From positions 44,392,001-44,456,000 of the forward strand of contig OZ024754.1 of assembly GCA_964016885.1 (NCBI GenBank): a stretch of DNA of 64,000 nt, given 5' to 3'. The notes below the pieces were generated by a model. It saw nothing but the letters and a program-made list of their open reading frames with translations, did not search any database and had not been told where the DNA came from. This document shows positions 627-63,688 of the stretch, one piece after another (positions within the stretch are counted from its first letter, which is position 1; each line of letters opens with the position of its first letter). The DNA comes from Eledone cirrhosa. Its lineage: Eukaryota. A program made the translations under genes and the position numbers.

Positions 627-813
627 ACGGTGGATTGGCAGTATCAGTAGAGTGTCAGACGCCATGCTTTGCAGCATAGAGTTATGGCCCTTTACGTTCT
701 GAGTTAAAATCCCATTGAGGTTAACTTTGCCTTTATATCCTTACAGAGTCGATAAAATAAAGTACCAGTAATTCACTGGCGTAATTGCTGGCTTTGTGCC
801 AATAGTAGAAACA
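627..813 (+). mobile_element. tRNA-SINE copy
   Basis: Same head and core; flanked by a direct repeat attatctttaaatta. Confidence 0.8.
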
Positions 814-2685
814 ATTATCTTTAAATTACGGTGGATTGGCAGCATCACAACAGCAGCATCACAACAGCACCGCCACAACAGCACCGCCACAACAGCAGCA
901 TCACAACAGCAGCATCACAACAGCAGCATCACAACAGCACCGCTACAAGTCGCCATTTCCTTCTATATTTTCTATTTAGCATTTTTTGCATTTCTTGACT
1001 GTTTTTTGTAAAGGTGAAAAGGTGACCTTTTATATTTTTGAATAATTTGGACTCTAGCCACAAAGTTCGGACGTTGTGTACTGGAAAACAGACCATTGCT
1101 GCTGCTGCTGCTGCTGCGTCGTCGTCGTTGTTGTTGTTGTTGTTGTTGGTTGTTCTTCTTCTTCTTCTTCTTCTTCTTCTTCTTCCTCGCCCGCTTATGC
1201 CCAATTGGGTCGTTGTGGGAGCAGAGGCCTCATCAACACACCCAGGCCACCACCATCACCACCACAAAAACCACCACCAACACCACCACCATCAGCATCA
1301 CCATCGCCAACCCCCCACCCCCACCCACACACACCAGCAGCACCACCACAAACATCTTCCCCAACACCACCACCACTACCACCACCACCACCACCACCAC
1401 TTTCACCATTACGCTATCTTCTAAGATGGCCACTATTACATCTTTTATCTCCCAGTTGCCAAAAAGCCAGATAAATGTCTGCCAGACTCCACGATAACAA
1501 ACGTAAAAACACCCTGGCATGTAAATACACTGTAGCTGCCATCTTGGGTTGTTTGAAACTTTTCTGTCACTAGCATTGTTGTCTAGTGTCGCCAAAACCT
1601 TCACTAAGAGGCTCTCAAACTTTTCAGGCCACCACCCCTCCCGGCCTCACAGTCACGTAACACCCTCAGACCCCCCCCCAGACCCCACCCCCACGACCCT
1701 ATTTATAGCGAGGCCTGTCTACACGTAAATTGTAAATAATTGTTTCTACTTTTGGCACAAGGCCAGCAATTACCCCAGTACATTACTGGTACTTTATTTT
1801 ATAGAACCCCTTTGGGATGAAAGGCAAAGTTAACCTCGGCGGGATTTGAACTCAAAACATAAAGGGCCATAACAGGGGGTCGGGATGTGCTCCAGGATCC
1901 TAGAGCACCAGACGTCTCCACTACTATACGTTCAACAAGAAGCTAGTCCACTACATGGGGCTCACTTCTGGAGGTCGTCAACTCCCCCTCGAGGTAGCAG
2001 GGGGCCAGGATGTGCTCCAGGATCCTAGAGCACCAGACGTCTCCACTGTTCTATTTTTAACAAGAGCCAGTCTACTTCATGGGTCTCACTCCTACGATTA
2101 GCCAACTCCTTCTCTGCCCAGATAGCAGCGAGTAGGGATGGGGTCGATTTTCGTAACATTCATAAAGAAATCAAGAAAGCAACAATAAATAAAAGTGAAT
2201 GAGATGATATAAGGGCTGGAAGACAAGAGGGGGAACCTAAAACGAGGAGATTATAAAACAGCCTCCTTAGCCACGCAGCCACGCCTGCACCTATCTTAAA
2301 CAGTGTTTCATACAGTGTTGCCGTAATATATATTCTGTTTGGGTGTTAGTCACCACCAATTCCACGGTGGGGTGTAGAGATACGGGGTAAGGTGTAAGGT
2401 TTATGTATGGGAGTTTGCAGTTAGGTTTAAGATTAGGGTTAAACTGAGAAGAGAGGTGGTGGTGGGGGGGGGGGGGGGTGCATTGAAAATGTTATTTTTA
2501 TTTTGGGTAACACAGGGTGACCATCAAACACACACACGTACATATATATATATATATATATATACATACATATGTATACATACATGCACACACATACACA
2601 CACTCACATACATACATATATATATTTATACATATGTATATATATACATATATATATATATACATATATATTTACATATATATAC

Positions 2686-3290: not shown

Positions 3291-3830
3291 AAACTTCTGT
3301 TTAGAGTATCCATAATATAAAATAATTTTCAACGATATTTAGAAATATACCAATTAAGAAACCTACCAGGTTTGGGGGACCAGCCAGTACTTTGTTCCGG
3401 GGCCCAAGAGCTAAGAAGGCCCCACAACAACCATTTTGAGAAAATGTTTGCCTGCTTCTGGCCCCAAGGGGTCTTGTACCGCCTTGCAAGATTTCTCTTG
3501 GAGGCCTGCACGTACGTACATATTCGCACACACACACAAATATACAGGCATAAACTGTGTGCGCGTGCTGGGACTCATAATTAGTAATTAGTGGTGTAAG
3601 GAGGGCGAAATAAAGGGTTTTTTTTCTCTAAACATAACTAATTAAAGGATAATATCCCCTTAAATACTGATGTAATGATATGGTTCAGCAGTTATACACC
3701 TAATTCTACACACGGGTTTCAATATCTCAAACATGAGAGTACACACACACACGCATACATACATACACACGCACATACACAGAGAAACATATGCAGCTGC
3801 ATACACATTCATAGTCGCTCATATATATAT

Positions 3831-4013
3831 AGGAAGAGAGTCAAGACCCCGACGGCAGAGCTCCGGCCGTTTCGACAGCTAGATCCAGCTGTCGAAACGC
3901 CTGGAGCTCTGCCGTCGGGGTCTTGAACATTTTCCTATTACCCACTCTACTACCCTAAGTATCGAGTACTCTGGTGCGTTATGGTCCACCTGGATCCTTA
4001 CCACACTTCCTTC

Positions 4014-4016
<3 letters not shown>
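3831..4016. mobile_element. Fold-back short element in (TA)n; other copies at 19061-19210, 48830-49030, 63335-63510
   Basis: ~86-bp palindrome tcaagaccccgacggcagagctc...gagctctgccgtcggggtcttga plus a shared ~90-bp tail abutting (TA)n. Confidence 0.75.
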
Positions 4017-4050
<34 letters not shown>

Positions 4051-5654: not shown

Positions 5655-5870
5655 GGCAGTGGATTGGCAGAATTGGTAGAGCGTTGGACACCATGCTGGC
5701 ATAGAATTATGTCCTCTTATGATCCGAGTTCAAATCCCACTGAAGTTAGCTTTGTCTTTCATCATTACAGGGTCGATAAAATAAAGTACCAGTAATGCAC
5801 TGGTGTTAATTTAATCGACTCCCCCCCCCCTCAATCTCAAAATTGCTGGCCTTGTGCCTAAATCAGAAAT
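5655..5870 (+). mobile_element. tRNA-SINE copy
   Basis: Head, B-box, core and tail match 52344-52560. Confidence 0.8.
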
Positions 5871-6196
5871 CATTATTGTTATTGCCCTATTATCATTACC
5901 ATCAACATCCAGAATTCTCTCATCTCTTGCCATGGTGACAATGGTGGTGATGGTAGTTCTAATGATGATATACGCGAAATACACCAAAACTACACCTGAT
6001 GTACACATGTACACTTGTGTATCATGACTCATGCACTGTTCATTTTCCTGATGTTTGTACATTACCCTATGTACTATACATACACTTTTTGATGAGTTGT
6101 AGTGCACCTGAGCACTGTACACAATATTTCATTATTATTATTTTTATAGTGTTTTTGAATAAGAGATGTTGATAACGAGACTGATGAATATATATG

Positions 6197-7168: not shown

Positions 7169-10100
7169 GTAGGTTGCAAGATAAATGTGTCTGTAGGCGG
7201 TAAGCCGGTTGAGCACTCAAAGCTCGCGCAGAGCAGAGTATAATATTATAATGATAAGGAACAAGGATTTGGGTTCGATCTATAATAGATCTTGCCTCGA
7301 GCTGATCGATAGAGAAACATATGTAATGTGTTATTAAATATGTTATGATGCAACACTGAATCCTTGTTCCTTATTATAATATATATAAATCCCGCTGAGG
7401 TTAACTTTGCCATTCATCCTTAGGGGGTCGATAAAATAAAGTACCAGTAATGTACTGGGTAATTGCTGGCCTTGTGCCTAAAGTAGAAACAATTATAATA
7501 TATATATTATGTATTTTTTTTACTTCTCTCACTCTTAAGGGAATCATAGGAGCACATATTGACATAAAGCATAGGGCATTTTTTAAACTTGGCGGAGCCC
7601 AACCCTTTCCAGGTCTGGATACATCAGATTTCTTCCAGAGAAGGATAGAGGGTGAGAGGAAGAGAGAAAGAGATATAGAGGAAGAATCTACCAATCATTA
7701 TAGATAGATAGAGAGATAGCGAGATAGATAGAGAGATTGAGTGATAGATAGATAGATAGAGAGATAGATAGATAGATAGATAGATAGAGAGAGAGATAAG
7801 TGTATCTATATTTACAAAGGCTAAACATAAAGGGCCACATACCTCTACAGCCAGCTGGAAGGAACTGACCAAATCCTTTTCTTTCAAGGTTTTTTCAAAC
7901 ATTTGATGAGTGGAATGTAATGGATCAATCTAGATTACAGATAAGAAACAGGTTATTTCTAGCAAGTCAAGAAACCACACAAAGGCTCCCTCATGTTGTT
8001 GTTGCTGTTGTTGTTTTGCCAGATAAGTTGTACGTATTCTTTGATCCAAATACCTGCATACCATTGGTCAGCTGATGTTAATGGGTTAAAGAAACCTTGT
8101 TTGGGGCTAAACAACAACAGCAACAACAACAACAGCAACAACAACATGCCCAATCACAGAGATATTGACCTCCATGTCTTCTAAAATAATTAACACACAT
8201 CGTTCTAGTTTGTTGTATTAATAAAAACAAACAGCAACAAAATACTCACCATGGTTCTATCTCCAGGATTGGCACCACCATACCTGTAACAAACCAACAA
8301 AAATTAATTAACATATGATCCATAATTATTATCCTATTAGGGGATCTTTCATCATTGTTTTAAGGGGTTCTTACACACCCAACATTATTTTAATCCTTTC
8401 TCTCGTTATGACAAAGATCTTCAGTTCTTCTATTGCAAGGCCACTTGGTAGTAAAACAACAGGTGTTTATATCCAAAGTTGGTAGAGCACTCAGTCCAAA
8501 AGACGAGTTCGGTACGGAGTTAGTTCCACAACAAATTAGCAAACCATACTCGAGGACACATGTTTCACCAGAAGGATTTTCAACCCGTGCATGGCTACAC
8601 AATATTAAATATTGCTTTAAGATCAGGATTTCTGTGAAACACACTTACCTCTGAATGGTCTCAAGTCCAGCTCCAAGAGCTTTACACCAGCCTGTACCTG
8701 TCATATCATCAGGGTGTTGCTCCAGATCTCGGGCAGCGGCAGTGAAAAATAAGCAGTAGAGCTGAAATAGGGGTGTAATGTTAAGATACCTGGGTAGATG
8801 GCAACAGCTGTGGATGCTCAAACAAAAGAGTGTGGGATGAAATGTTGAAATACCCAGGTAGATGGCAACAGAGATGTAACTAGGGAATATAGTACATATG
8901 GCAAGCAGTGAAATTGTACCCCTACCCAAACCTCTGATAACCATAATATTTTAAAGGGAGCGATCTGTGTAATACTGATCTTTGACAAATATTAGACCCT
9001 ATTAACATATTTGACAAGTCATACTATGGTCTTGTAGTTACTAGCCCAGTATTTTTTCCTATGGAAGCCTCTTTCATCATCATCACCATTTTACATCCGC
9101 TTTTCCTTGCTTGCAAGGGTGGGATGGGTCCTTTTCAGCACAGCATCTCTCCATTTGTCACGGTCCTTCGTCACCTCCTCTGTGAGCTTCAGTGATCTGA
9201 GGTCAGCTCTCACCACCTCCACCCATGTTTTTCGTGGTCTTCATCTACTGCATCTTCCTTATAAATGGTTTAATGATCCAGCCACCATAGTGTTTCTCAG
9301 CCATGATAATCAAAGACAGATCATACATCTGAAGAAGTTTCTTTATTCACCCTCCAATGATAGCTTGTCTGACTTTAATAGAAAGTGTTCCTAGTCCAAG
9401 TGCCAGACCATCAACCCACCCACATCAAGTGGCACCCGTGGGATGTGCCATACTCTAGTTACACCCCTGGATGGCAATAAAACAACAGATTATACTCACA
9501 GCTCCTGATGTTCCTCCCATACAGTTCTTGGCCACCTCTGCCAGGTCCTCAGCTAATTTGGCCCAGTTGTCCACTGCTAACCTACACTGCTGGACACTGC
9601 CCAGTCTTTTGATGATTTCTGATGAGACAGGTAAACATATAAACTGATGATGATGATGAGGAGGTATGTACCAGGTAAGGTGGTCGTGTATTGTTTATAT
9701 ATATATATATATATATATATGCAGATTATATTTAATTTGTTGGGATTCAACAAGCTTAAAAATGTTTATAACTGATATAAAGCACTCAACAGTTTAGTGG
9801 AGTAAATATACAATATATTAATAAATGGAAACTATATTTATAAAACCATATTTATTTTATTATACATATTTCAAGGGCAACCAAGGCAAATTATGGTGTG
9901 CTTTCATCAGATAAAATACAGATTTGTTATATAAATAAATATTGACATACTCAGAAAAAAGACTATCCCGGAAGCTTTAAGGTTGTCTTTTTTCCGGGTA
10001 TGTCAATATTTATTTATAAAACAAATGTGTATTTTATCTGATGAAAGTGCACCATAATTTGCCTTGGTTGCCCTTGAAATATATATAATAAAATAAATAT

Positions 10101-10295
10101 GGTTTTATAAATATAGTTTCCATTTATTAATATATTGTATATATATATAGTTATACTTTGGGAGGGTCATATTGCCAGAATTAATAACAGAACACACTCA
10201 CTGTTTGGTTGGTTTTCGCTTCTGCATCTTTTATATCAGTTAATTTAATTTATTCGGTCCTCAATATTTCTCTCTCTCTATCTATATATATATAT

Positions 10296-10332
<37 letters not shown>

Positions 10333-12717
10333 AATGGATGGGTAGAAGAGGGAAAGAGAGAGAGAATGAGAACAGATGAAATTACCTTGAGCTCCACGGG
10401 CCAGAGTACTACCACAATCACCATCACCACTAACAGTGTCCAGTTGGTTTAAATATTCTTCTTTGGTCAACAGTGACTCACAAACTTGTTTCAGTAGTTT
10501 ATGTCGTGTGATATGTTTAACTGTAACGGAACATTTTATATTTAAGGGTTGTTATTGTTATTAACCCTTTACCATTTACATTACTCTATATATACTATTG
10601 TATTTTCACAGTAAAGGCTTTACCTCACATAATATCTCACATAACATCTACATTACTCTATATATACTATTGTATTTTCATGGTAAAGGCTTTACCTCAC
10701 ATAATATTGAATCTATGAAATTTGATATTTTTTATGGCCATGGATTGGCACTATCAGTAGAGATGCGAACACCATGCTTTGAAGCATAGAGTAATGGCTC
10801 TTTGCCTTCTGGGTTCAGTAAAATGACTATTTTGATTGAGAAATGTCACATCAATAAACTAGTAACTCCATCTAGCTTTGAAGTTATGAACTGTTGGAAG
10901 CGGGTTCATAACTCTGAAGTTATGAACTGTTGGAAACGATTTCAAACATGCTAGGATGAGTTATCTCATCTACAGGACTGAAGAGGTTAAAGTACTGATA
11001 ATAAATTGTAGTCTATACTCACCAACAAAAGTATTTGTCATCCTTGGACTCTCAGTAGATGTACTACCACCTTGGACTGTTGAAGAAGTATGTCGGTCAA
11101 TGGTATTCTCAGGTAGGTAAGGATGAAGCCAGCTGGGAGCTGAGGTTGGCGCATCTGGGATAGATATTACAGAGGTTAGGCAATGATATGTAATCAACGA
11201 GTCCATCGCAGGGTTAAACCCCCAGCTATTACTGGTACTCATTTTCAGCTGAGTATACTGGAGCAACGTGAAATGAAGTGTTTCGCTCAAGAACACAACA
11301 CACAACCCAGCCTAGGAATCAAACCCACCACATTACAATCGTAAGTCCAACACCCTTACCACTAGGCCACACACCTCCACATCCAACACCCTTACCACTA
11401 GGCCACGTACCTTCACATCCAACACCCTTACCACTAGGCCATGTACCTTCACATCCAACACCCTTACCACTAGGCCACATACCTTCACATCCAACACCCT
11501 TACCACTAAGCCACGTACCTTCACATCCAACACCCTTACCACTAGGCCATGTACCTTCACATCCAACACCCTTACCACTAGGCCACGTACCTTCACATCC
11601 AACACCCTTACCACTAGGCCACGTACCTTCACATCCAACACCCTTACCACTAGGCCACGTACCTTCACATCCAACACCCTTACCACTAGGCCACGTACCT
11701 TCACAATATAATAAGGTAGAAAAGAGAATTGAGGTGAAACTAAGACAAATGTTTCACTTACCAAGGTATTTCTTAAAGGATTCATTGAGGCGGAGAAGGG
11801 TTATAGAGACACCCCTCATGTTTAGAGAGGTTACAAAGGAACCAGAGTAGGCTCGGCTAACACGGAGGCACTTGGTATCTTCTGTAAACAGATAGAAGGA
11901 GAGATATACAGAGAGAAAGAAAGAGAGAAATACAGATAGAAAACAGTGAAAAGAAATGTTTTATATATATGTGAGAGTAGGTTGAAAAGTTCATAGGCTG
12001 ACCAAGATACTCTCATGGAATGACGAAAGGGGTTTATACTTCAACATACAGGCAAGCATGGAATAGCGAACATATGATGTTAATGATAATGGTAATACAT
12101 AAAATAAAAAGACATCCAGAAAATTGAAAATGTTTCTAAGTATTAACTTACCAAGATATGATATAGCTTCTTTAGCTATTACGTTCTGTTCTATAATGGT
12201 AAGGCCCCCTAGGTTATTGATAATGCAGGCAACTTCATCACCTAAAAGAGTTATGGTAATTAAATAAAGGGGGAAAATAAAATAGAAAACTGAACAATCA
12301 AGGATGAAAATGTAATATATAAAGTTCAAGAAGTCTTTGGACAAATTCCTTCATGAAATCCTGGATAAATCTCCTACACTTGGATATGTCTACATAAACA
12401 CTAGTTCTCTACTTGAGTGGGCCATGGTGTCTAAATTCTGATTTGAAACACTTCGCCAGGTGGTGCTATTAAGTCAGGCATAACCTAAGCCAATACTGGT
12501 CAAAACCTATCAAAGTTATATCAGTATGTACATATGTGTATGTGTTTGTAAATATATACATGTACATATGTGTATGTGTTTGTAAATATATACATGTACA
12601 TATGTGTATGTGTTTGTAAATATATACATGTACATATGTGTACATATTGGTAAATACATACATGTACATATGTGTATGTACACGGACTGACACAACACAT
12701 ACACACACAGGCAGTTG

Positions 12718-13051: not shown

Positions 13052-15580
13052 TATATATGGTGAAGCTGTGTGGCTGAGTGGTTAGAGAATTGGATTCACA
13101 GTCCTGAGGTTATAATTTCGGGTGATGCATTATGTCCTTGAGCAAGACACTTTATTTCATGTTTCTCCTTCTGCCTGGAGTTGTGACCGGCAGATAGTAT
13201 TAGCAATTGGAAAGACTAATAGAAACATTGTTCTCCTAGTCGTCCGATTTGACGAGCTTCACCCCATTGTTAAGCGAATGAGGGCTGGGACCTTGTCGAT
13301 CGAATGTCGATATATCATCACCACTTTACATCCGTTCTTCCATGCTAGCATGGGTTAGACGGGATATATATATATATATCATCATCATCATTTACCACAC
13401 AATACCGCACCGCACCGCACCGCACCGCACCGCACCGCACCGCACCGCACCGCACCGCACCGCACCGCACCGCACCGCACCGCACCGCACCGCACCGCAC
13501 CGCACCGCACCGCACCGCACCGCACCGCACCGCACCGCACCGCACCGCACCGCACCGCACCGCACCGCACCGCACCGCACCGCACCGCACCGCACCGCAC
13601 CGCACCGCACCGCACCGCACCGCACCGCACCGCACCGCACCGCACCGCACCGCACCGCACCGCACCGCACCGCACCGCACCGCACCGCACCGCACCGCAC
13701 CGCACCGCACCGCACCGCACCGCACCGCACCGCACCGCACCGCACCGCACCGCACCGCACCGCACCGCACCGCACCGCACCGCACCGCACCGCACCGCAC
13801 CGCACCGCACCGCACCGCACCGCACCGCACCGCACCGCACCGCACCGCACCGCACCGCACCGCACCGCACCGCACCGCACCGCACCGCACCGCACCGCAC
13901 CGCACCGCACCGCACCGCACCGCACCGCACCGCACCGCACCGCACCGCACCGCACCGCACCGCACCGCACCGCACCGCACCGCACCGCACCGCACCGCAC
14001 CGCACCGCACCGCACCGCACCGCACCGCACCGCACCGCACCGCACCGCACCGCACCGCACCGCACCGCACCGCACCGCACCGCACCGCACCGCACCGCAC
14101 CGCACCGCACCGCACCGCACCGCACCGCACCGCACCGCACCGCACCGCACCGCACCGCACCGCACCGCACCGCACCGCACCGCACCGCACCGCACCGCAC
14201 CGCACCGCACCGCACCGCACCGCACCGCACCGCACCGCACCGCACCGCACCGCACCGCACCGCACCGCACCGCACCGCACCGCACCGCACCGCACCGCAC
14301 CGCACCGCACCGCACCGCACCGCACCGCACCGCACCGCACCGCACCGCACCGCACCGCACCGCACCGCACCGCACCGCACCGCACCGCACCGCACCGCAC
14401 CGCACCGCACCGCACCGCACCGCACCGCACCGCACCGCACCGCACCGCACCGCACCGCACCGCACCGCACCGCACCGCACCGCACCGCACCGCACCGCAC
14501 CGCACCGCACCGCACCGCACCGCACCGCACCGCACCGCACCGCACCGCACCGCACCGCACCGCACCGCACCGCACCGCACCGCACCGCACCGCACCGCAC
14601 CGCACCGCACCGCACCGCACCGCACCGCACCGCACCGCACCGCACCGCACCGCACCGCACCGCACCGCACCGCACCGCACCGCACCGCACCGCACCGCAC
14701 CGCACCGCACCGCACCGCACCGCACCGCACCGCACCGCACCGCACCGCACCGCACCGCACCGCACCGCACCGCACCGCACCGCACCGCACCGCACCGCAC
14801 CGCACCGCACCGCACCGCACCGCACCGCACCGCACCGCACCGCACCGCACCGCACCGCACCGCACCACACCACACCACACCACACCACACCACACTACAC
14901 TACACTACACTACACTACACTACACTACACTACACTACACTACACTACACTACACTACACTACACTACACCACACCACACCACACCACACCACACCACAC
15001 CACACCACACCACACCACACCACACCACACCACATACTTAAACTCACCAGATCCAGCTTGGAACCCATTAATGTTGTCTGGATTAAACATGTGATCCAGC
15101 ATCACTGCAACAGCATCTTTTGCAGAGGTAAACTGAAATACAGGTAATACAGGTAAGATGTTTTAGAGGTAGAGGTAGGGGTGGTTTAGTAGAGGTAAAT
15201 TGATATACAGGTAATACAAGTAAGATGTCTTTATAGCAACTGTACAGCAAGATTTCAAAGAAACTTGCGGCAACATTTTATAGCTAATGAGTGGCAAGAT
15301 TTTGCTATGTGCAGCCCTAATGCAGCAAATATGCGGTGTGCAACTATTCAGCTTAGAAAGAACATTGATCTGGGGTCTTACTGACTTCAGGTATTTCAAG
15401 GTAGTCAGTTATATAAAGGATTATTGGAATCAAATAGTGTTTAACAGGGAAATAGAATGAAAATAGATCTCTTACCTTCAGTTTCTTTACACCTGCTTCT
15501 CCATGGAGACCTGGGTTTGAAAGGTGAGTAGTTGGGTGAGAAATCAAATATATGTTGAGAGAGAGAAAGAGCAAGGGAGA

Positions 15581-16437: not shown

Positions 16438-19400
16438 TAGGTAGTAGTAGCAATAGTAGTAGTAGTAGTGGTGGTAGTAGTGGTAGTGGTGGTAGTAGTA
16501 GTAGTGGTAGTAGTAGTAGTAGTAGTAGTGGTAGTAGTAGTAGTGGTAGTAGTAGTGGTAGTAGTAGTAGTAGTGGTAGTAGTAGTGGTACTCACTGATG
16601 TTCTTGTGTAGTTCATGACAGGCAGCTGTGATTTCAGCCAAGCTGTGGCCCTTCTCTGCCATAGCACCAGCAATCTGTGGTAGATGGAGATAGAGAGAGG
16701 TGCAGTGAGAGAGAGGAGGAGAGAGAGAGGTGCAGTGAGAGTGTTGTAGTGTGTTTCACTATTTGACATATTTGAGGGGGGGACAAATAGTATGTGTGTT
16801 GTATGTATTACACTCTATAGTGTGTGTGTGTATGTATTACTCTGTCCTGTATTGTGAATCAATATATAGAGAGTGTGTGTATATGTTAGCTCTCCAGTGT
16901 ATATGTTAGCTCTCCAGTGTGTGTGTGTTAGCTCTCCAGTGTATGTGTTAGCTCTCCAGTGTATGTGTTAGCTCTCCAGTGTGTATGTGTTAGCTCTCCA
17001 GTGTGTGTGTATTAGCTCTCCAGTGTGTGTGTTAGCTCTCCAGTGTGTATGTGTTAGCTCTCCAGTGTGTGTGTATTAGCTCTCCAGTGTGTATGTGTTA
17101 GCTCTCCAGTGTGTGTGTATTAGCTCTCCAGTGTATGTGTTAGCACTCCAGTGTATGTGTTAGCACTCCAGTGTATGTGTTAGCTCTCCTGTGTGTGTTA
17201 GCTCTCCAGTGTGTGTGTGTTAGCTCTCCAGTGTGTGTGTTAGCTCTCTAGTGTGCGTGTTAGCTCTCCAGTGTATGTGGTAGCTCTCCAGTGTATGTGG
17301 TAGCTCTCCAGTGTGTGTGTGTTAGCTCTCCAGTGTATGTGTTAGCTCTCCAGTGTGTGTGTTAGCTCTCCAGTGTGTGTGTTAGCTCTCCAGTGTGTGT
17401 GTTAGCTCTCTATCAATTCAAACAACAGGTGTTCCAGTAAAATGACAGAGATGATAAAACTAATTAGTTTACCTTCATTACAAATACAACTCCACAAAGT
17501 CCTCTCCGTCCTGCAGACTTAGTGTTGTTGATAGTGGCACAGTCCTCACCAATAATCACAGAGTCTATGTTGATATTTGGACATTGACTTTGGAAGTTCT
17601 CAAGAGCCAAACCAAAGTTTAGGCGGTCACCAGTGTAATTTAGAATCAAAACAAGGCAGCCTCCTGTTTAAAGATAACAATAAAGAATTAAGAGATGTGT
17701 CATCAGCTTAGATACCAGGTGAGAAAATATATTAACAACGACAATATATAATTGTTTCTACTTTTGGCTCAAGGCCAGCAATTACCTCAGTGTATTGCTG
17801 GTACTTTATTTTATCGATCCCATAAGGATGAAAGGTAAAGCTAACCTTGACGAGATTTGAACTCATAATTATTATTTTTTTTAATATTTGTTTCTGCTTT
17901 TGGCACAAGGCCAGCAATTACTCCAGTGCATTACTGGTACTTTATTTTATTGACCCCATAAGGATGAAAGGCAAAGTTAACCTCAGCGGGATTTGAACTC
18001 AGGCCATAAAGGGACGTAACTCTATGCTGCAAAGCATGGTGTCCGACCCTCTACCGATGCTGCCAATCCACCACCCTTGGGGACAATATATAATGGTTAA
18101 TTATTGAGCCAGGAGGAATGAAAGTCCAATCTTGCTTACAACCAGCCCTGATATTGAACTACGTCTAATGAAAGTCCAATCTTGCTTACAACCAGCCCTG
18201 ATATTGAACTACGTCTAATGAAAGTCCAATCTTGCTTACAACCAGCCCTGATATTGAACTACGTCTAATGAAAGTCCAGCCCTTCCACAACCAAACTTGT
18301 TAAATTATTGACCCATGAGAAATTCCAACTGCCATCACCCTGCAGTTTTCTTTTCCCGGCACAGTGTATCTGTGACTACATTATTCTAATGTGTCATATT
18401 TTTAAGATAATAGGGAGATTCGAGAAAGATTTAGCTGTTGTTTATTGTAGATCTTGCAACTATACAGAATTTTCCTTATTTTGGGGAATGGTCAAGCTAC
18501 TCCATCTTGTCAATATTAAAGAAAAAAAAACACAAGATGTAGAAAAAAATTAAGACGAGAAAGAAGAGGAGGCACATAAGAGAACAGATAGTCATTGAGG
18601 AGGCCAGAGAATGTGTGACAAAAGAACTTTGATGAAGTAACCAATAACTAGCAATAAAGATAAAGTGAAAATCTTATGGTGCGCTGTGTTTTTTTTATTG
18701 GCAATAATGGCAAGGTGTCCATCCCAACATATAACAATATCGGTTTCAACACATGATTTCACATTAAGAATCTTGCAAAACAAATACATAAACACACACT
18801 TATATATATATAGATATAGATATATATTACCTTTAGATGTTGGTGTGCAGATTGCATTGATAGCAGCACTGATGCTCATTGGTGGAGGTGATGTGAAAAT
18901 AGGACCTGCAACAGATGCACTCAGGAGACCTCTACCAACATACCCTACAATTAATGACATAAATATCTTAAGACAGTCATAAATATATATGTATGTATAT
19001 GAAAAGTGGCTGTAAAATGATGGTGATGATAGTGATAGTTTATATATATATATATATATAACGTAGGAAGTGTGGTAAGTAACCAGGTAGACCATAACAC
19101 ACCAAAATACTCGATACTTAGGGTAATAGAGTGGGTAATAGGAAAAGAGTCAGGACCCCGTTCAGACCTAGCTGTCGAAATGGTCGAAGCTCAACCGTCG
19201 GGGTCCTGACGATTAAATCGACTCCAGTACGTTACTGGTACTTTATAATGCTTACAGAACGGAAACACAAACAAATATAATATATACAAAGGAAAGGGAA
19301 AGGGAAAAAAAGAAAGAGGAAAAGAAAGAGAAAAACAACAACACATAAGCAGGTAATACACACATCTAGGATCATATACACACATCTAGGACATATATAC

Positions 19401-23905: not shown

Positions 23906-46275
<22,370 letters not shown>

Positions 46276-47202
46276 GAGACGCTGTTGTCTTCAGAACCAG
46301 GAGAAAGTAACAATAATAATAACAATGATAATAATAATAATAAATACAAAAGATAGCACTACTAGGCACTGCACACAGATTACGAAAAGTACCATCAATA
46401 CAATAGAAACAAAATCAGCAAAAGCTACACTGCATGTGTCCAAGGGGCATAGGACTGTGCTCGGTAAAGCAGTAATGATGCGCAATAAAAATAATAATGG
46501 AAATAATAATAATAATAATGGATTCTGATTTAGGTACAAGGCCAGCAATTTTGTGGGAGGGGAAAGTCGATTAAATCGACCTCACTTCATGACTGGTACT
46601 TTATTTTAGTCACGTACTGGGGTCGATGTAATCGACTCCCCCCCCCCCCCTCCCAAATTGCTGGCCTTGTACCTAAATCAGAAAACCTCATTATTATAAT
46701 GATAACTTTAGAATAACAACGATAACTAGAACAGAAAGACCAGTTTCTTCATTCTGGTCGGTTCCTTGTTGTTACAGGAAATTTTGGCACTTAAACATGT
46801 TTAAATAAGACGTAATTCGGAGAGGAATCTCATGTGAGACCTCCATTCTATACTGTTTGAACAATAAACCTTTTAAAATAAGATTTTGTTTTGTTTTGTT
46901 CTTTTGGTAAATTATATTAATTTTAAAAATTGTAAAGATCGATTTCAAGTCAGGGGCCCCCAAATTGAGCTCTTCAAATTGGGGACCCCCTCAAATTGGC
47001 TTAGGGGTTAGGGTATTCGGTTCACGATCGTAAAGTCATGAGTACGATTCCCAGTGGTGCGTTGTGTCCTTGAGCAAGACACTTTATTTCAGGTTGCTCC
47101 TATGTGTAAGTATGTAAACGTGATTCTGGTTTCTGGTTTGTGATTGGATGTTTATAGGACAAGACCATAACAAAATATGAACACACACAAACAAACACAC
47201 AT

Positions 47203-48812: not shown

Positions 48813-48829
48813 TGCAGTTATATATATAT

Positions 48830-49030
48830 AACAGAGGAAATGTGGTAAGGAACCAGGTGGACCATAACGCACCAGAGTACTCAATACTTTGGGTAGTAGA
48901 GTGGCTAATAGGAAAATGTTCAAGACCCCGACGGCAGAGCTCAAGCCGTTTCGACTGCTATTTCTGGACAGTCCAGAAATAGGCGTCGAAACGGCTTGAG
49001 CTCTGCCGTCGGGGTCTTGAACATTTTCAT
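48830..49030. mobile_element. Fold-back short element in (TA)n (same family as 3831-4016)
   Basis: Palindrome 48912-49028 plus shared tail. Confidence 0.75.
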
Positions 49031-49450
49031 ATATATATATATGTGTGTTTGTGTGTGTGTGTGGGGGGGGGGGGGGGGGGGTCTGGTAAAAAAAAATTCC
49101 TCAAGTTCTATTTAGTAATATTCATGCTTTCATTTGAATAACTTATTTAAATGTATGGAAACTGAAGACATTTTAATTTAGTCATATAGGAATGCTGTCG
49201 ATCGATTAACGGAATAATTACTAACATCGTGCTAAACAGATCTCATCGATAAAACAATTAGTATCCTTGTTTTGTTGACGATGGTTAATATGATGGTTAA
49301 AACCACAACCACGGCTGGATTACGGATGTGGTATATGGGAAATGAAGGAAACCATTGTTTAAATAAATCCATTCTGTTGGAAGCTCCAACAGTAATGGTT
49401 GCATTCTTTAAGGGTATGTCAATATTTATTTATAAAACTGATCTATATTG

Positions 49451-49515
49451 TATTTTATCTGATGAAAGCACACCATAATTTAACTTGGTGTCCTTGAAAT
49501 ATGTATAATGAAATA
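49451..49515 (+). ncRNA. Minimal type-I hammerhead ribozyme motif (third copy)
   Basis: tattttat-CTGATGA-aagcacacca/tggtgtcctt-GAAA-tatgta-TA-atgaaata; substitutions keep the pairing. Confidence 0.72.
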
Positions 49516-49642
49516 AATATGGTTTTATAAATATAGTTTCCATTTGTTAATATCGTATTTTTACTCCAAATATTTGTTGAGTGCTTTATATCAGTTATAA
49601 AAATATTTGCTTGTTGTATCCCAACAATTTAAATAGAACTTT

Positions 49643-49703
<61 letters not shown>

Positions 49704-51833: not shown

Positions 51834-56046
<4,213 letters not shown>

Positions 56047-59275: not shown

Positions 59276-59311
59276 CATACATACATACATACATACATAC
59301 ATACATACATA

Positions 59312-61830
59312 AGTGAGGGTACCCTTGAGACTGTGATAGGAAAACTCCAAGATAAGAAAACACCAGGAAGAGACATGATTGTCGGCTACTGGTACAAAAA
59401 ACTAATATTCTATCGGAGGTATCTTACTGACCTCTACCAACAAGTTCTTAAGGGAGATACACTTATACCAGAATGGTTGACATTAGCACAAACGTTACTG
59501 GTCCCCAAGAACAAAGACACCCACTTGGCAAAAAACTACCGACCCATTGCATACCAGAACCTGATGTATAAGATGTATACAGCCTGCCTGAACCTATTCC
59601 TCCAAGATCACTGTGAAAATAATAACATCATCACAGATGAACAAGCAGCTGGAAAGAAGAGGGTTTGGGGATGTGCTGAACAACTCCTAATCTACAAAAC
59701 TGCGATGTCGGAGGTGCGACAACTTAGGAGGAATATGACTACAGTCTGGCTGGACTACAGGAAAGCTTTCGATTCTGTTCCCTACTCTTGGATGATAGAA
59801 ACCCTCCAACTTGCTAAAGTCCCAGACATTATTGTCAGAGCCATAGAGAGGCTGTCTTCTTCTTGGGCTACTATCCTAAGGTTAAAGACAGATAGGGAGG
59901 ACTCTATTTTCACTGATAAAATAAAATATTGCAGGGGTATATTTCAGGGGGACAGTCTCTCTGTGATATTGTTCATCTTGTCATTAAACCCCTTGTCCTT
60001 TTTGCTCAAGAAATGCGAGGGATACATCATTGGCTCACAGGAGGACAGAAATACGAACCTAACCCATAACTTCTTTGTGGACGATCTGAAACTCTATGCC
60101 AAGAACATGGATGGGATGAAGAAAAATCTTGACCTGGTTACAACGTTCTCAAAGGATATAGGAATGGAGTTTGGCCAAGATAAATGCTCATACATGACTG
60201 TAAAGCGAGGAAAAACAACAACCCAATCTAGCAACATTGTCATCAATGGTCTAACTGTTTCACCGATATCTGATGAGGAGTGCTACAGATACCTGGGGAT
60301 AGATGAGAACATATCCTATAATGGTATCTGTAATAAAGAACGCGTAACCAGGGAATACTACACCCGATTAAGAAAGATCTGGTCATCGGAACTCTCTGCG
60401 CAAAACAAAACAGTGGCTCACAATGTATTTGCTGTGCCTGTCCTAACACCAACGTTTGGAATACTCAATTGGACGATAGACGAAATCCGAGCAGTTGATG
60501 TTGGAACTCGAAAAATACTGAACAACACCGGAAACTTCCACATCAACAGTGACATAGACCGCCTTTACTTGAAACGTAAGCAGGGAGGCAGAGGCCTAAC
60601 ATCAGTCCAAACAACATTTGAATGTCGCATCATATCTCTCCGACAACATCTACGAACCTCGAAGCGTAGGAGCCCGCTTCTCGAGCAAGTCTATCTGCAT
60701 GAAACAGATAAGATCATGAGAGTTGGGAAAGAACTCCTTGAGAGATATTCCCTGTGTGATAATCAGCAGTATCGCAGTGAATCCATGGATGAAAAACTGC
60801 ATGCCTATCAGCAAAAAAATCATGCATGGATATGTTGCCAGGAAGCTCCAGAGTGAGAGTAATATAGATAAGGAAAGTAGTCTATCTTGGACCAACAACC
60901 GCTATATTGGCTCCCACTTTGAAGGATACGCTTTTGCAATCCAAGAACAGGAGATTAGTACAAAATACCTGATTCACAAAAGAGATAGGGATGCAGGCAA
61001 AACACCTAGATGTGATAACAAGTGCAGACTCTGCAGAACTAACATCGAGGATATCACCCATGTCATCAGCAGCTGCCCAAAGATGTCATCGCTGTACTAT
61101 CTACCTATGAGGCATGATGTAGTGGCCAAAACACTGTTCAATGCAGTTCGTAAAAAAGATAGCCCCGATAATAAACACATTAAAAGCTACAACAATGTGG
61201 AAGACATCTATGTACATAATATGAAAGAGTACTGGTGGAATGTTCCAGTAAAAACCCCAATAAAATGCAGGCATAACAGACCAGATATTATGATATGGGA
61301 CAGGGAGAAGAAAACATGCACAGTAGTGGAAATTAGCTGCCCAGCGGATGCCAATATTAGTGAAAAGGAGAATATTTATGCAGAACTGATGAGAAATCTG
61401 CAGATACTCCACCCTGATTACACCTTCAGATTTATGCCTGTGATTATTGGGGCACTGGGATATGTTAGTAACTGCCTCAATACAAATCTTGAGAAGCTAG
61501 GCTTCACAGGAACAGAAAGAACACAACTAGTTATGAAACTACAAGTACAATCCATTAATGGAACAGTAAAAATATGTAAAACATTCCAAAAAAGTTGCAT
61601 CTAATAACTGCATATACACATGTACAGATACAAAGCATATACACATGCACACATACAACTCAAAATATACACATCCACATACAATAACATCCATATCTAC
61701 ACATGCATGCATACATACATATCTACCTAGTTGATGTTGTGTAAATTCCAATGAGAGAGTCTTGTGTCTATGTTAGAAACCGACTCTCTCTCTATTGGTA
61801 AAACTTTGTGAAATTATAAAACCAGAAGAA
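59312..61830 (+). mobile_element. 5'-truncated non-LTR retrotransposon with RT and C-terminal restriction-like endonuclease (R4/Dong-like, family A); frameshifted
   Basis: ORFs 59333-60856 and 60723-61604 carry RT motifs (NYRPI, WLDYRKAFDSV, GIFQGDSLS, FFVDDLK, YRYLG), CCHC knuckle CRLC..H..SSC, RHD, and PD..(D/E) nuclease RPDI...VEISCP. (CATA)n on both flanks. Confidence 0.92.
59333..61604 (+). pseudogene. Disrupted RT-RLE polyprotein of the LINE (frameshift near 60770-60850)
   Basis: Two overlapping frames together give RT, zinc knuckle and RLE; begins inside the RT N-terminal region (KKTPGRD). Confidence 0.85.

Positions 61831-63281: not shown

Positions 63282-63688
<407 letters not shown>

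What the first reader, a model, noticed from the sequence alone, without database searches (positions are those of the whole stretch)
9721..10142. Pair of inverted minimal hammerhead ribozyme motifs in a fold-back element in TKFC intron 11
Both arms of a ~160-bp inverted repeat contain stem I-CUGAUGA-stem II-GAAA-(palindromic uauaua/uaugua)-UA-stem I. This matches the minimal type-I hammerheads of Penelope-like elements, which are thought to cleave as dimers through the palindromic stem III. One copy is sense to the TKFC pre-mRNA. The fold-back would compete with ribozyme folding and form long dsRNA, a potential ADAR substrate; this is relevant if the host is a coleoid cephalopod.
Basis: partly seen in the sequence, partly recalled or inferred. 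Interest (0 to 1): 0.72.

Follow-up and report, generated by a model that had tools for sequence, protein, structure and literature searches.

The report
Fold-back Penelope stub with hammerhead motifs
This 425-base hairpin-shaped insert in an intron of an octopus-like TKFC gene is two head-to-head pieces of a very abundant repeat, likely the tail end of a Penelope-like jumping gene; each piece carries a hammerhead-ribozyme motif that the hairpin is predicted to switch off, so it is likely an ordinary leftover of a known kind.

Summary
Observation confirmed: arms 9803-9963 and 9985-10145 (161 nt, 95%) each carry a type-I hammerhead motif (0 of 5000 shuffles), in intron 11 of a minus-strand TKFC gene whose best match is Octopus vulgaris (88%). 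A solo third copy lies at 49.4-49.6 kb, and laid contigs show a very high-copy family.

The unit is two 5'-truncated copies joined head-to-head, with a one-sided 82-nt tail and (TA)n at both ends: the published shape of Penelope-like insertions. The link to an RT/GIY-YIG ORF could not be tested.

Corrections: the copy sense to TKFC is the minus one (cut after A9861, not A10087). The two copies cannot dimerise in cis. The antisense arm is transcribed first and is predicted to sequester the ribozyme (95 kcal/mol). The motif lacks the usual G10.1-C11.1 pair. Editing and cleavage were untestable.

One hint: 8 of 11 fold-back junctions shown from other genomic copies stop within -1..+10 nt of the predicted cut, possibly a fossil of in-vivo cleavage. 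This scan found the same kind of stub before on other genomes (7 notes). Verdict: new member of a known kind, low interest.

The parts
9721..9963 (-). Copy A: 5'-truncated repeat copy, sense to TKFC pre-mRNA, ending in (TA)n
9721..9802 (-). One-sided 82-nt 3' tail of copy A (shared with copy C, absent from copy B)
9853..9918 (-). Hammerhead motif A (core 9910-9904, GAAA 9872-9869, predicted cut after A9861); helix II weakened by mutation
9962..9963 (.). Head-to-head junction; the two copies overlap by about 2 nt
   Evidence: junction compared by eye with loose ends before 9977 and 9996
9962..10145 (+). Copy B: 5'-truncated copy with the short 3' end (end uncertain, 10137-10145, within TA)
10011..10113 (+). 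Hammerhead motif B (10030-10095, predicted cut after A10087) with distal 12-bp helix 10011-10022/10102-10113
9696..9720 (.). (TA)12 target, left
10138..10149 (.). (TA)6 target, right; a different high-copy repeat follows at 10150-10260
9619..10385 (-). TKFC intron 11 (GT..AG), the host intron
10386..10521 (-). TKFC coding exon 11 (start approximate; Dak2 start)
9500..9618 (-). TKFC coding exon 12
49379..49646 (+). Copy C: solo 5'-truncated copy (5' end approximate) with hammerhead motif 49451-49515, long tail and (TA)n; no inverted partner

Best explanation
The element is two 5'-truncated, head-to-head copies of a very abundant hammerhead-bearing repeat, likely the pLTR end of a Penelope-like retroelement, likely left by one insertion into a (TA)n tract in TKFC intron 11. 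Shown: the arms, the motifs, the one-sided tail, (TA)n ends, a solo third copy, very high family abundance, and a centre that the family does not share. Inferred from published PLE biology: an element-encoded GIY-YIG nuclease nicked the TA tract; reverse transcription started at one of two sites (giving short and tailed 3' ends), stopped early about 55-75 nt upstream of the ribozyme core and switched template or folded back, making the mirror copy. In the parent element the hammerhead probably processed tandem pLTR transcripts as a dimer. At this locus it is predicted to be inert: in either direction of read-through the antisense arm is made first and pairs with the whole ribozyme. The 161-bp, 78% A+U duplex is a likely ADAR substrate in nascent RNA, as a by-product.
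For: Architecture matches print: inverted 5'-truncated copy, optional one-sided tail, (TA)n preference in several PLE clades (PMC8557442); head-to-head inverted pLTRs (PMC3846280); paired minimal hammerheads 100-700 bp apart on opposite strands (PMC4209133); tail = distance between two RT start sites (PMC11167929). Family: summed depth 2e5-2e6 over the arms against about 9.4 over exon 12 in run X1, falling towards the 5' end in 4 of 4 runs; centre depth only 23-206 at 9951-9976. Other copies fold back at other points (11 skip joints). Helix II covaries: loose ends at 9873 and 10075 show a different sequence with the same 31-nt length and pairing (read by eye); copy C has A-U where copy B has G-C. 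Isolated B and C fold into the hammerhead frame; in the intron P(helix I)=0, core unpaired 0, gap 94.8 kcal/mol. Two more families in the window have the same fold-back, tail, (TA)n and hammerhead-remnant anatomy. Penelope-like elements are 6.83% of the O. vulgaris genome.
Against: No RT or GIY-YIG ORF was found next to any copy (0 of 7 translations around copies A and C match Pfam), so PLE parentage rests on architecture. The tail is 82 nt against 30-40 in print. The G10.1-C11.1 pair and bulged nucleotide of the PLE consensus are absent. Zero changes in the 13 core positions among 3 copies is expected by chance with P=0.31, and only 40 of 186 variant rows were shown (none of the 40 in the core). 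No target-site duplication can be read in TA repeats.
Confidence: 0.84

Rival explanations
1. The hammerhead-bearing repeat is the 3' end of a non-PLE retroelement (a SINE-like or retrozyme-like non-autonomous element), inserted with a twin-priming-type inversion.
For: No PLE ORF seen beside the 3 copies; the motif departs from the PLE consensus; it does not match Naiad_Ovul.
Against: No head-to-tail tandem units as in retrozymes; the one-sided tail with head-to-head inversion is described as PLE-typical; a preprint argues animal retrozymes derive from PLEs anyway.
Confidence: 0.08
2. It is a MITE or fold-back DNA transposon that moves as one palindromic unit into TA sites and carries the motifs passively.
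For: Long inverted arms and TA flanks.
Against: The arms are not terminal (82-nt tail on one side); copy C is solo; the centre is near single-copy depth and other copies fold back elsewhere.
Confidence: 0.04
3. It is a host-selected regulator of TKFC: a ribozyme that cuts the pre-mRNA, or an editing-controlled hairpin that gates it.
For: Copy A is sense to the pre-mRNA with an intact core; A-to-I editing could in principle loosen the duplex; octopus hyper-editing is very high.
Against: Ribozyme A is fully sequestered in the predicted fold and has the weakest helix II of the three; no sense partner lies in the transcript for a dimer; arm differences look like neutral decay (3 of 8 are CpG-type, by eye).
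Confidence: 0.03
4. The motif is a chance match in AT-rich DNA, or the palindrome is an assembly artefact.
For: The region is 78% A+T.
Against: 0 of 5000 and 0 in 40 shuffles; the arms differ at 8 sites; a third copy and a covarying subfamily exist.
Confidence: 0.01

Closest known systems
Insertion units of endonuclease-positive Penelope-like elements (Arkhipova et al. 2013, PMC3846280; Craig et al. 2021, PMC8557442)
   Same: 5'-truncated copy plus adjacent inverted copy head-to-head, optional one-sided tail, (TA)n target, hammerhead in the repeat, high copy number.
   Different: Tail 82 nt rather than 30-40; no ORF seen, so the clade (Neptune, Hydra or other) is unassigned; no readable target-site duplication.
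[quoted passage not shown]
   Same: CUGANGA/GAAA/UH core, type-I topology, long helix II, palindromic helix III region, AU-rich flanks, pairs on opposite strands 100-700 bp apart.
   Different: Helix II closes with A-U, with no bulged nucleotide and no G10.1-C11.1; 6-nt all-A/U palindrome; 31 nt between the core boxes; helix I extends to about 24 bp. Their held alignment file has mollusc rows but no Octopus row.
Poseidon element of Anolis (Frangieh et al. 2024, PMC11167929)
   Same: Two alternative 3' ends defining a tail; hammerhead upstream of them.
   Different: There the ORF starts inside the ribozyme and no reads ended at the cut site; here no ORF is evident and some genomic junctions lie near the cut.
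Naiad_Ovul / Naiad_Obim (Craig et al. 2021 supplement)
   Same: Octopus PLEs that target (TA)n.
   Different: No similarity to this family seen (motif search; Naiad_Ovul in full and the 3' part of Naiad_Obim read by eye); Naiads lack canonical hammerheads.
Self-folding repeats as ADAR substrates: Xenopus Harbinger, lizard Penelope (Porath et al. 2017, PMC5625713)
   Same: One insertion supplies a long, near-perfect hairpin with a short loop.
   Different: Editing is shown there and untested here.

Membership tests
EN+ Penelope-like element insertion | Inverted 5'-truncated copy adjacent head-to-head | tested here: met
EN+ Penelope-like element insertion | Optional one-sided 3' tail | tested here: met
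   82 nt on copies A and C, absent on B; longer than the 30-40 nt in print
EN+ Penelope-like element insertion | (TA)n insertion preference (Naiad, Hydra and others) | tested here: met
   3 of 3 copies end in (TA)n
EN+ Penelope-like element insertion | Dispersed, mostly 5'-truncated copies | tested here: met
   depth falls 5'-wards in 4 of 4 runs; divergence between subfamilies contributes to the fall
EN+ Penelope-like element insertion | Parent ORF with telomerase-like RT and GIY-YIG endonuclease | not testable with these tools
   no genome held; no Pfam match beside the copies; pattern scans empty
EN+ Penelope-like element insertion | Target-site duplication or microhomology junction | tested here: inconclusive
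   TSD unreadable in TA; about 2-nt overlap at the centre
PLE minimal type-I hammerhead (Cervera consensus) | Core CUGANGA, GAAA, UH in type-I topology | tested here: met
   3 of 3 copies; B and C fold so in isolation
PLE minimal type-I hammerhead (Cervera consensus) | Palindromic 15.2-16.2/loop 3 allowing a dimer | tested here: met
   TATATA or TATGTA; predicted intermolecular helix only -3.2 / -2.2 kcal/mol
PLE minimal type-I hammerhead (Cervera consensus) | Bulged nucleotide after position 9 and G10.1-C11.1 pair | tested here: not met
   helix II closes with A-U in 3 of 3 copies against the consensus; the motif is therefore filed as a variant, not under the strict consensus
PLE minimal type-I hammerhead (Cervera consensus) | Covariation in the helices across family members | tested here: met
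   subfamily loose ends at 9873 and 10075 in runs X11 and X5 (by eye); B versus C. Few independent sequences
PLE minimal type-I hammerhead (Cervera consensus) | Self-cleavage as a dimer | not testable with these tools
   needs in-vitro assay
Rfam hammerhead families | Match to a covariance model | tested here: not met
   none among 29 matches at E<=10 in 8500-11500
MITE / fold-back DNA transposon | Terminal inverted repeats and a constant unit across copies | tested here: not met
   tail outside one arm, solo copy C, variable centres
Non-LTR retrozyme | Head-to-tail tandem units, each with a hammerhead | tested here: not met
   no tandem units in the window; untested genome-wide

The most novel reading that the evidence does not exclude
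The family's genomic copies preserve a fossil record of in-vivo hammerhead cleavage: many were reverse-transcribed from RNA whose 5' end was the ribozyme cut, so their fold-back junctions pile up at the scissile bond. The head-to-head geometry then silences any surviving ribozyme, and these self-folding stubs supply a large share of the long double-stranded RNA behind octopus hyper-editing, as palindromic Harbinger does in frog.
Probability: 0.25. Interest if true: 0.6.

Novelty: new member of a known kind. Interest (0 to 1): 0.27.

Why it matters
As a single locus it matters little: it is one of thousands of likely dead stubs. The family has some value. It gives an octopod hammerhead variant that Rfam models miss and that my searches did not find in print for cephalopods. 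With an assembled genome, its many truncation points would directly test whether PLE hammerheads cut in vivo, which is open (low in-vitro activity in PMC4209133; no reads at the cut in PMC11167929). It is also a concrete candidate source for the unusually abundant long dsRNA of octopus (PMC5625713).

Tried and rejected
Own genome: none held, so no copy count or ORF linkage. Pattern scans for the family gave 0 loci in metagenome contigs, viral contigs and prokaryote genomes. Rfam: no hammerhead model matched. No RNA holder listed among 13 runs. Run X4 (kind not on record) has a contig matching only exon 12 and no depth on the unique intron flanks, which looks like a spliced transcript; its A>G plus T>C share (34 of 76 places) against X1 (29 of 84), X5 (17 of 64) and X11 (47 of 163) mixes thousands of paralogues and is no evidence of editing. 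Read ends at 9889, 9892 and 10059 come from a RAD-seq DNA run and say nothing on RNA cleavage. A depth step at the cut site was looked for: the fall is gradual (X1 ratios 2.0, 2.2, 1.4). Co-folding two isolated motifs did not give the dimeric hammerhead; the energy model is weak for this. A possible PLE-type intron (GTATGT..TAG around the ribozyme) was dropped: a variant loose end before 10029 keeps the distal helix strand but not the donor-like motif. Translations around copies A and C: no Pfam family. Naiad_Ovul as parent: rejected (that supplement is held cut, and line breaks can hide a motif). The O. vulgaris repeat paper's held supplement gave no match to the 3 motifs searched; file 1 of the PMC4209133 supplement could not be searched; Lunse et al. 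(PMC5785218) is not held and is known here only through a review - its alignments may contain this variant. The line 'without 4 CpG-linked' used a wrong count (3 by inspection) and is not used.

Full report
Observation. The inverted repeat is real: arms 9803-9963 and 9985-10145, 161 nt, 95% complementary, with 8 mismatches. Each arm holds an 8-bp helix I, CTGATGA, a 31-nt helix II domain, GAAA, a 6-nt palindrome and TA. The same search finds a third copy at 49451-49515. The motif occurs in 0 of 5000 dinucleotide shuffles of the arm region and in none of 40 block-shuffled windows. No Rfam hammerhead model is among the 29 matches at E<=10.

Host gene. Two exons match Pfam Dak1. The first exon's best relative is O. 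vulgaris triokinase/FMN cyclase at 88% identity, the next two at 65-67% (3 hits among 47 candidates), so the host is most likely an octopod. That protein maps 16 coding exons on the minus strand. The element lies in the 767-nt intron after the 11th (9619-10385). The copy sense to the pre-mRNA is therefore the minus one, with its predicted cut after A9861.

Anatomy. Copy A (minus, 9963-9721) runs 82 nt further 3' than copy B (plus, about 9962-10145); copy C shares that tail. All three end in (TA)n. Loose ends of other genomic copies before 9977 and 9996 match both the 21-nt spacer and the sequence upstream of copy C. So the spacer is copy B's own 5' part and the two copies meet head-to-head with about 2 nt of overlap. 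Both arms share a T-rich stretch at 9954-9963/9985-9994 that differs from copy C and from the family loose ends, which suggests one template and one event. Arm divergence is JC 0.051; borrowing the calibration of 0.09 = 25 My quoted in PMC13282606 gives roughly 7 My or less, a loose figure.

Family. No genome is held. I laid 4 of 13 listed runs on 9300-10260 at 80% likeness. In X1, summed depth is about 9.4 on exon 12 and 2e5-2e6 on the arms. The tool warns this is no copy number; nominally it is about 1e5, or about 3e3 if overlapping short contigs inflate it 31-fold. Depth falls towards the 5' end in all four runs and is 23-206 at the centre (9951-9976), so the palindrome is not copied as a unit. 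Of 186 variant rows 40 were shown; none of these lies in the core, and those within the motif lie in helices or loops. Among the three window copies 0 of 13 core positions vary against 11 of 127 overall, which chance allows (P=0.31). Better evidence for selection on structure comes from loose ends at 9873 and 10075 in X11 and X5: read by eye they give a different helix II of the same 31-nt length, with the second pair changed from A-U to G-C and an 8-bp inner stem.

Folding. Alone, B and C fold into the hammerhead frame, with helix I extended by a 12-bp distal helix (pair probabilities 0.83-1.0); A does so only partly (helix II about 0.15). In the pre-mRNA the antisense of B is made before ribozyme A. 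At each of five transcript lengths tested, P(helix I) and core unpairing are 0, and forcing the ribozyme open costs 94.8 kcal/mol. B is silenced likewise in the other direction. The two copies never share a strand, so no dimer can form in cis; the trans helix III would be only -2 to -3 kcal/mol. These are equilibrium predictions, not measurements.

What is known. Cervera and de la Pena (PMC4209133; parts 1-2 of 4 read; supplement passages) describe minimal hammerheads in PLE pLTRs, dimer dependence, low activity, and pairs 100-700 bp apart on opposite strands. Their consensus has a bulged base and G10.1-C11.1, which this motif lacks. Craig et al. (PMC8557442; passages; supplement passages and part 24 of 59) describe the inverted 5'-truncated copy, the one-sided tail and (TA)n targeting. 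Arkhipova et al. (PMC3846280; passages) describe head-to-head inverted pLTRs and propose self-priming. Frangieh et al. (PMC11167929; passages) tie the tail to two RT start sites and found no reads at the cut. A review (PMC6765202; passages) and a preprint (10.64898/2026.07.22.740005; part 1 of 5) agree. PLEs make up 6.83% of O. vulgaris (PMC13282606; passages and a supplement row). Porath et al. (PMC5625713; passages) report very high hyper-editing and long-dsRNA content in octopus, and heavy editing of lizard Penelope and palindromic frog Harbinger. Searches for cephalopod hammerheads (listings only, 20 of 30 shown) showed no paper on this family. Seven earlier notes of this scan reached the same reading on other genomes; they are AI notes, not independent evidence.

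A hint worth following. One search shows 15 of 51 joints; 11 are skips, i.e. fold-back junctions of other copies. In 8 of these 11 the longer arm stops within -1 to +10 nt of the predicted cut, and an X4 loose end at 9855 (6 contigs) restarts at 10087. Templates cleaved by the ribozyme would give this. Against it: three of the joints share one register with up to 6 nt of microhomology (two are probably one junction seen from both strands); most rest on one contig or one or two read starts; the region is AT-rich and the best covered; 36 joints were not shown; and depth shows no single step at the cut. It is a lead only.

Context. Two other families in the window show the same pattern of (TA)n, one-sided tail, fold-back and hammerhead remnant. 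In one, the four centres all differ. This supports a general insertion by-product rather than a special TKFC device.

Verdict. Real, and most likely a dead fold-back stub of a Penelope-like element (0.84), with a variant hammerhead predicted to be off in this context. PLE parentage is inferred from architecture; cleavage and editing are untested. New member of a known kind; interest 0.27.

Noticed in passing
window 48819-49032 (+), 3821-4028 (-), 63320-63507 (+), 19049-19210 (+): Second fold-back family: (TA)n at the tailed end, one-sided tail of about 83 nt, arms carrying the 3' half of a hammerhead (GAAA, a real helix III, GTC) but no CUGANGA; the four centres all differ and lie just 5' of GAAA.
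   Followed up: partly
window 40790-40997: Third fold-back family: (TA)n at both ends, tail of about 60 nt, 48-nt arms, and a decayed hammerhead in the loop (ATGATGA at 40897, GAAA at 40943); the inversion point coincides with helix I, which may have supplied the microhomology (by eye). Its tail matches 55745-55818.
   Followed up: no
window 10150-10260 and 9300-9402: Two further high-copy repeats in TKFC introns 11 and 12; the first begins at the same (TA)n tract as copy B. No second copy in the window.
   Followed up: no
joints, window 9839-9857 to 10087-10106: Fold-back junctions of other genomic copies cluster near the predicted cleavage site (8 of 11 skip joints shown).
   Followed up: partly
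window 59276-61604 (+): Frameshifted non-LTR retrotransposon ORF with RVT_1 (E 7.9e-24) and a weak zf-RVT match.
   Followed up: no
window 32580-39573 and 41921-45103: Large minisatellites: 40-nt unit x175 and 38-nt unit x84, both 94% matches; also (ACCGC)n x298 at 13404-14895 inside a TKFC intron.
   Followed up: no
window 628-818, 1735-1873, 5659-5883, 7387-7499, 17745-18075, 28035-28484, 46503-46703, 52340-52567, 53584-53988 and others: A very abundant dispersed repeat of about 110-170 nt, often in inverted pairs close together: another likely source of intronic dsRNA.
   Followed up: no
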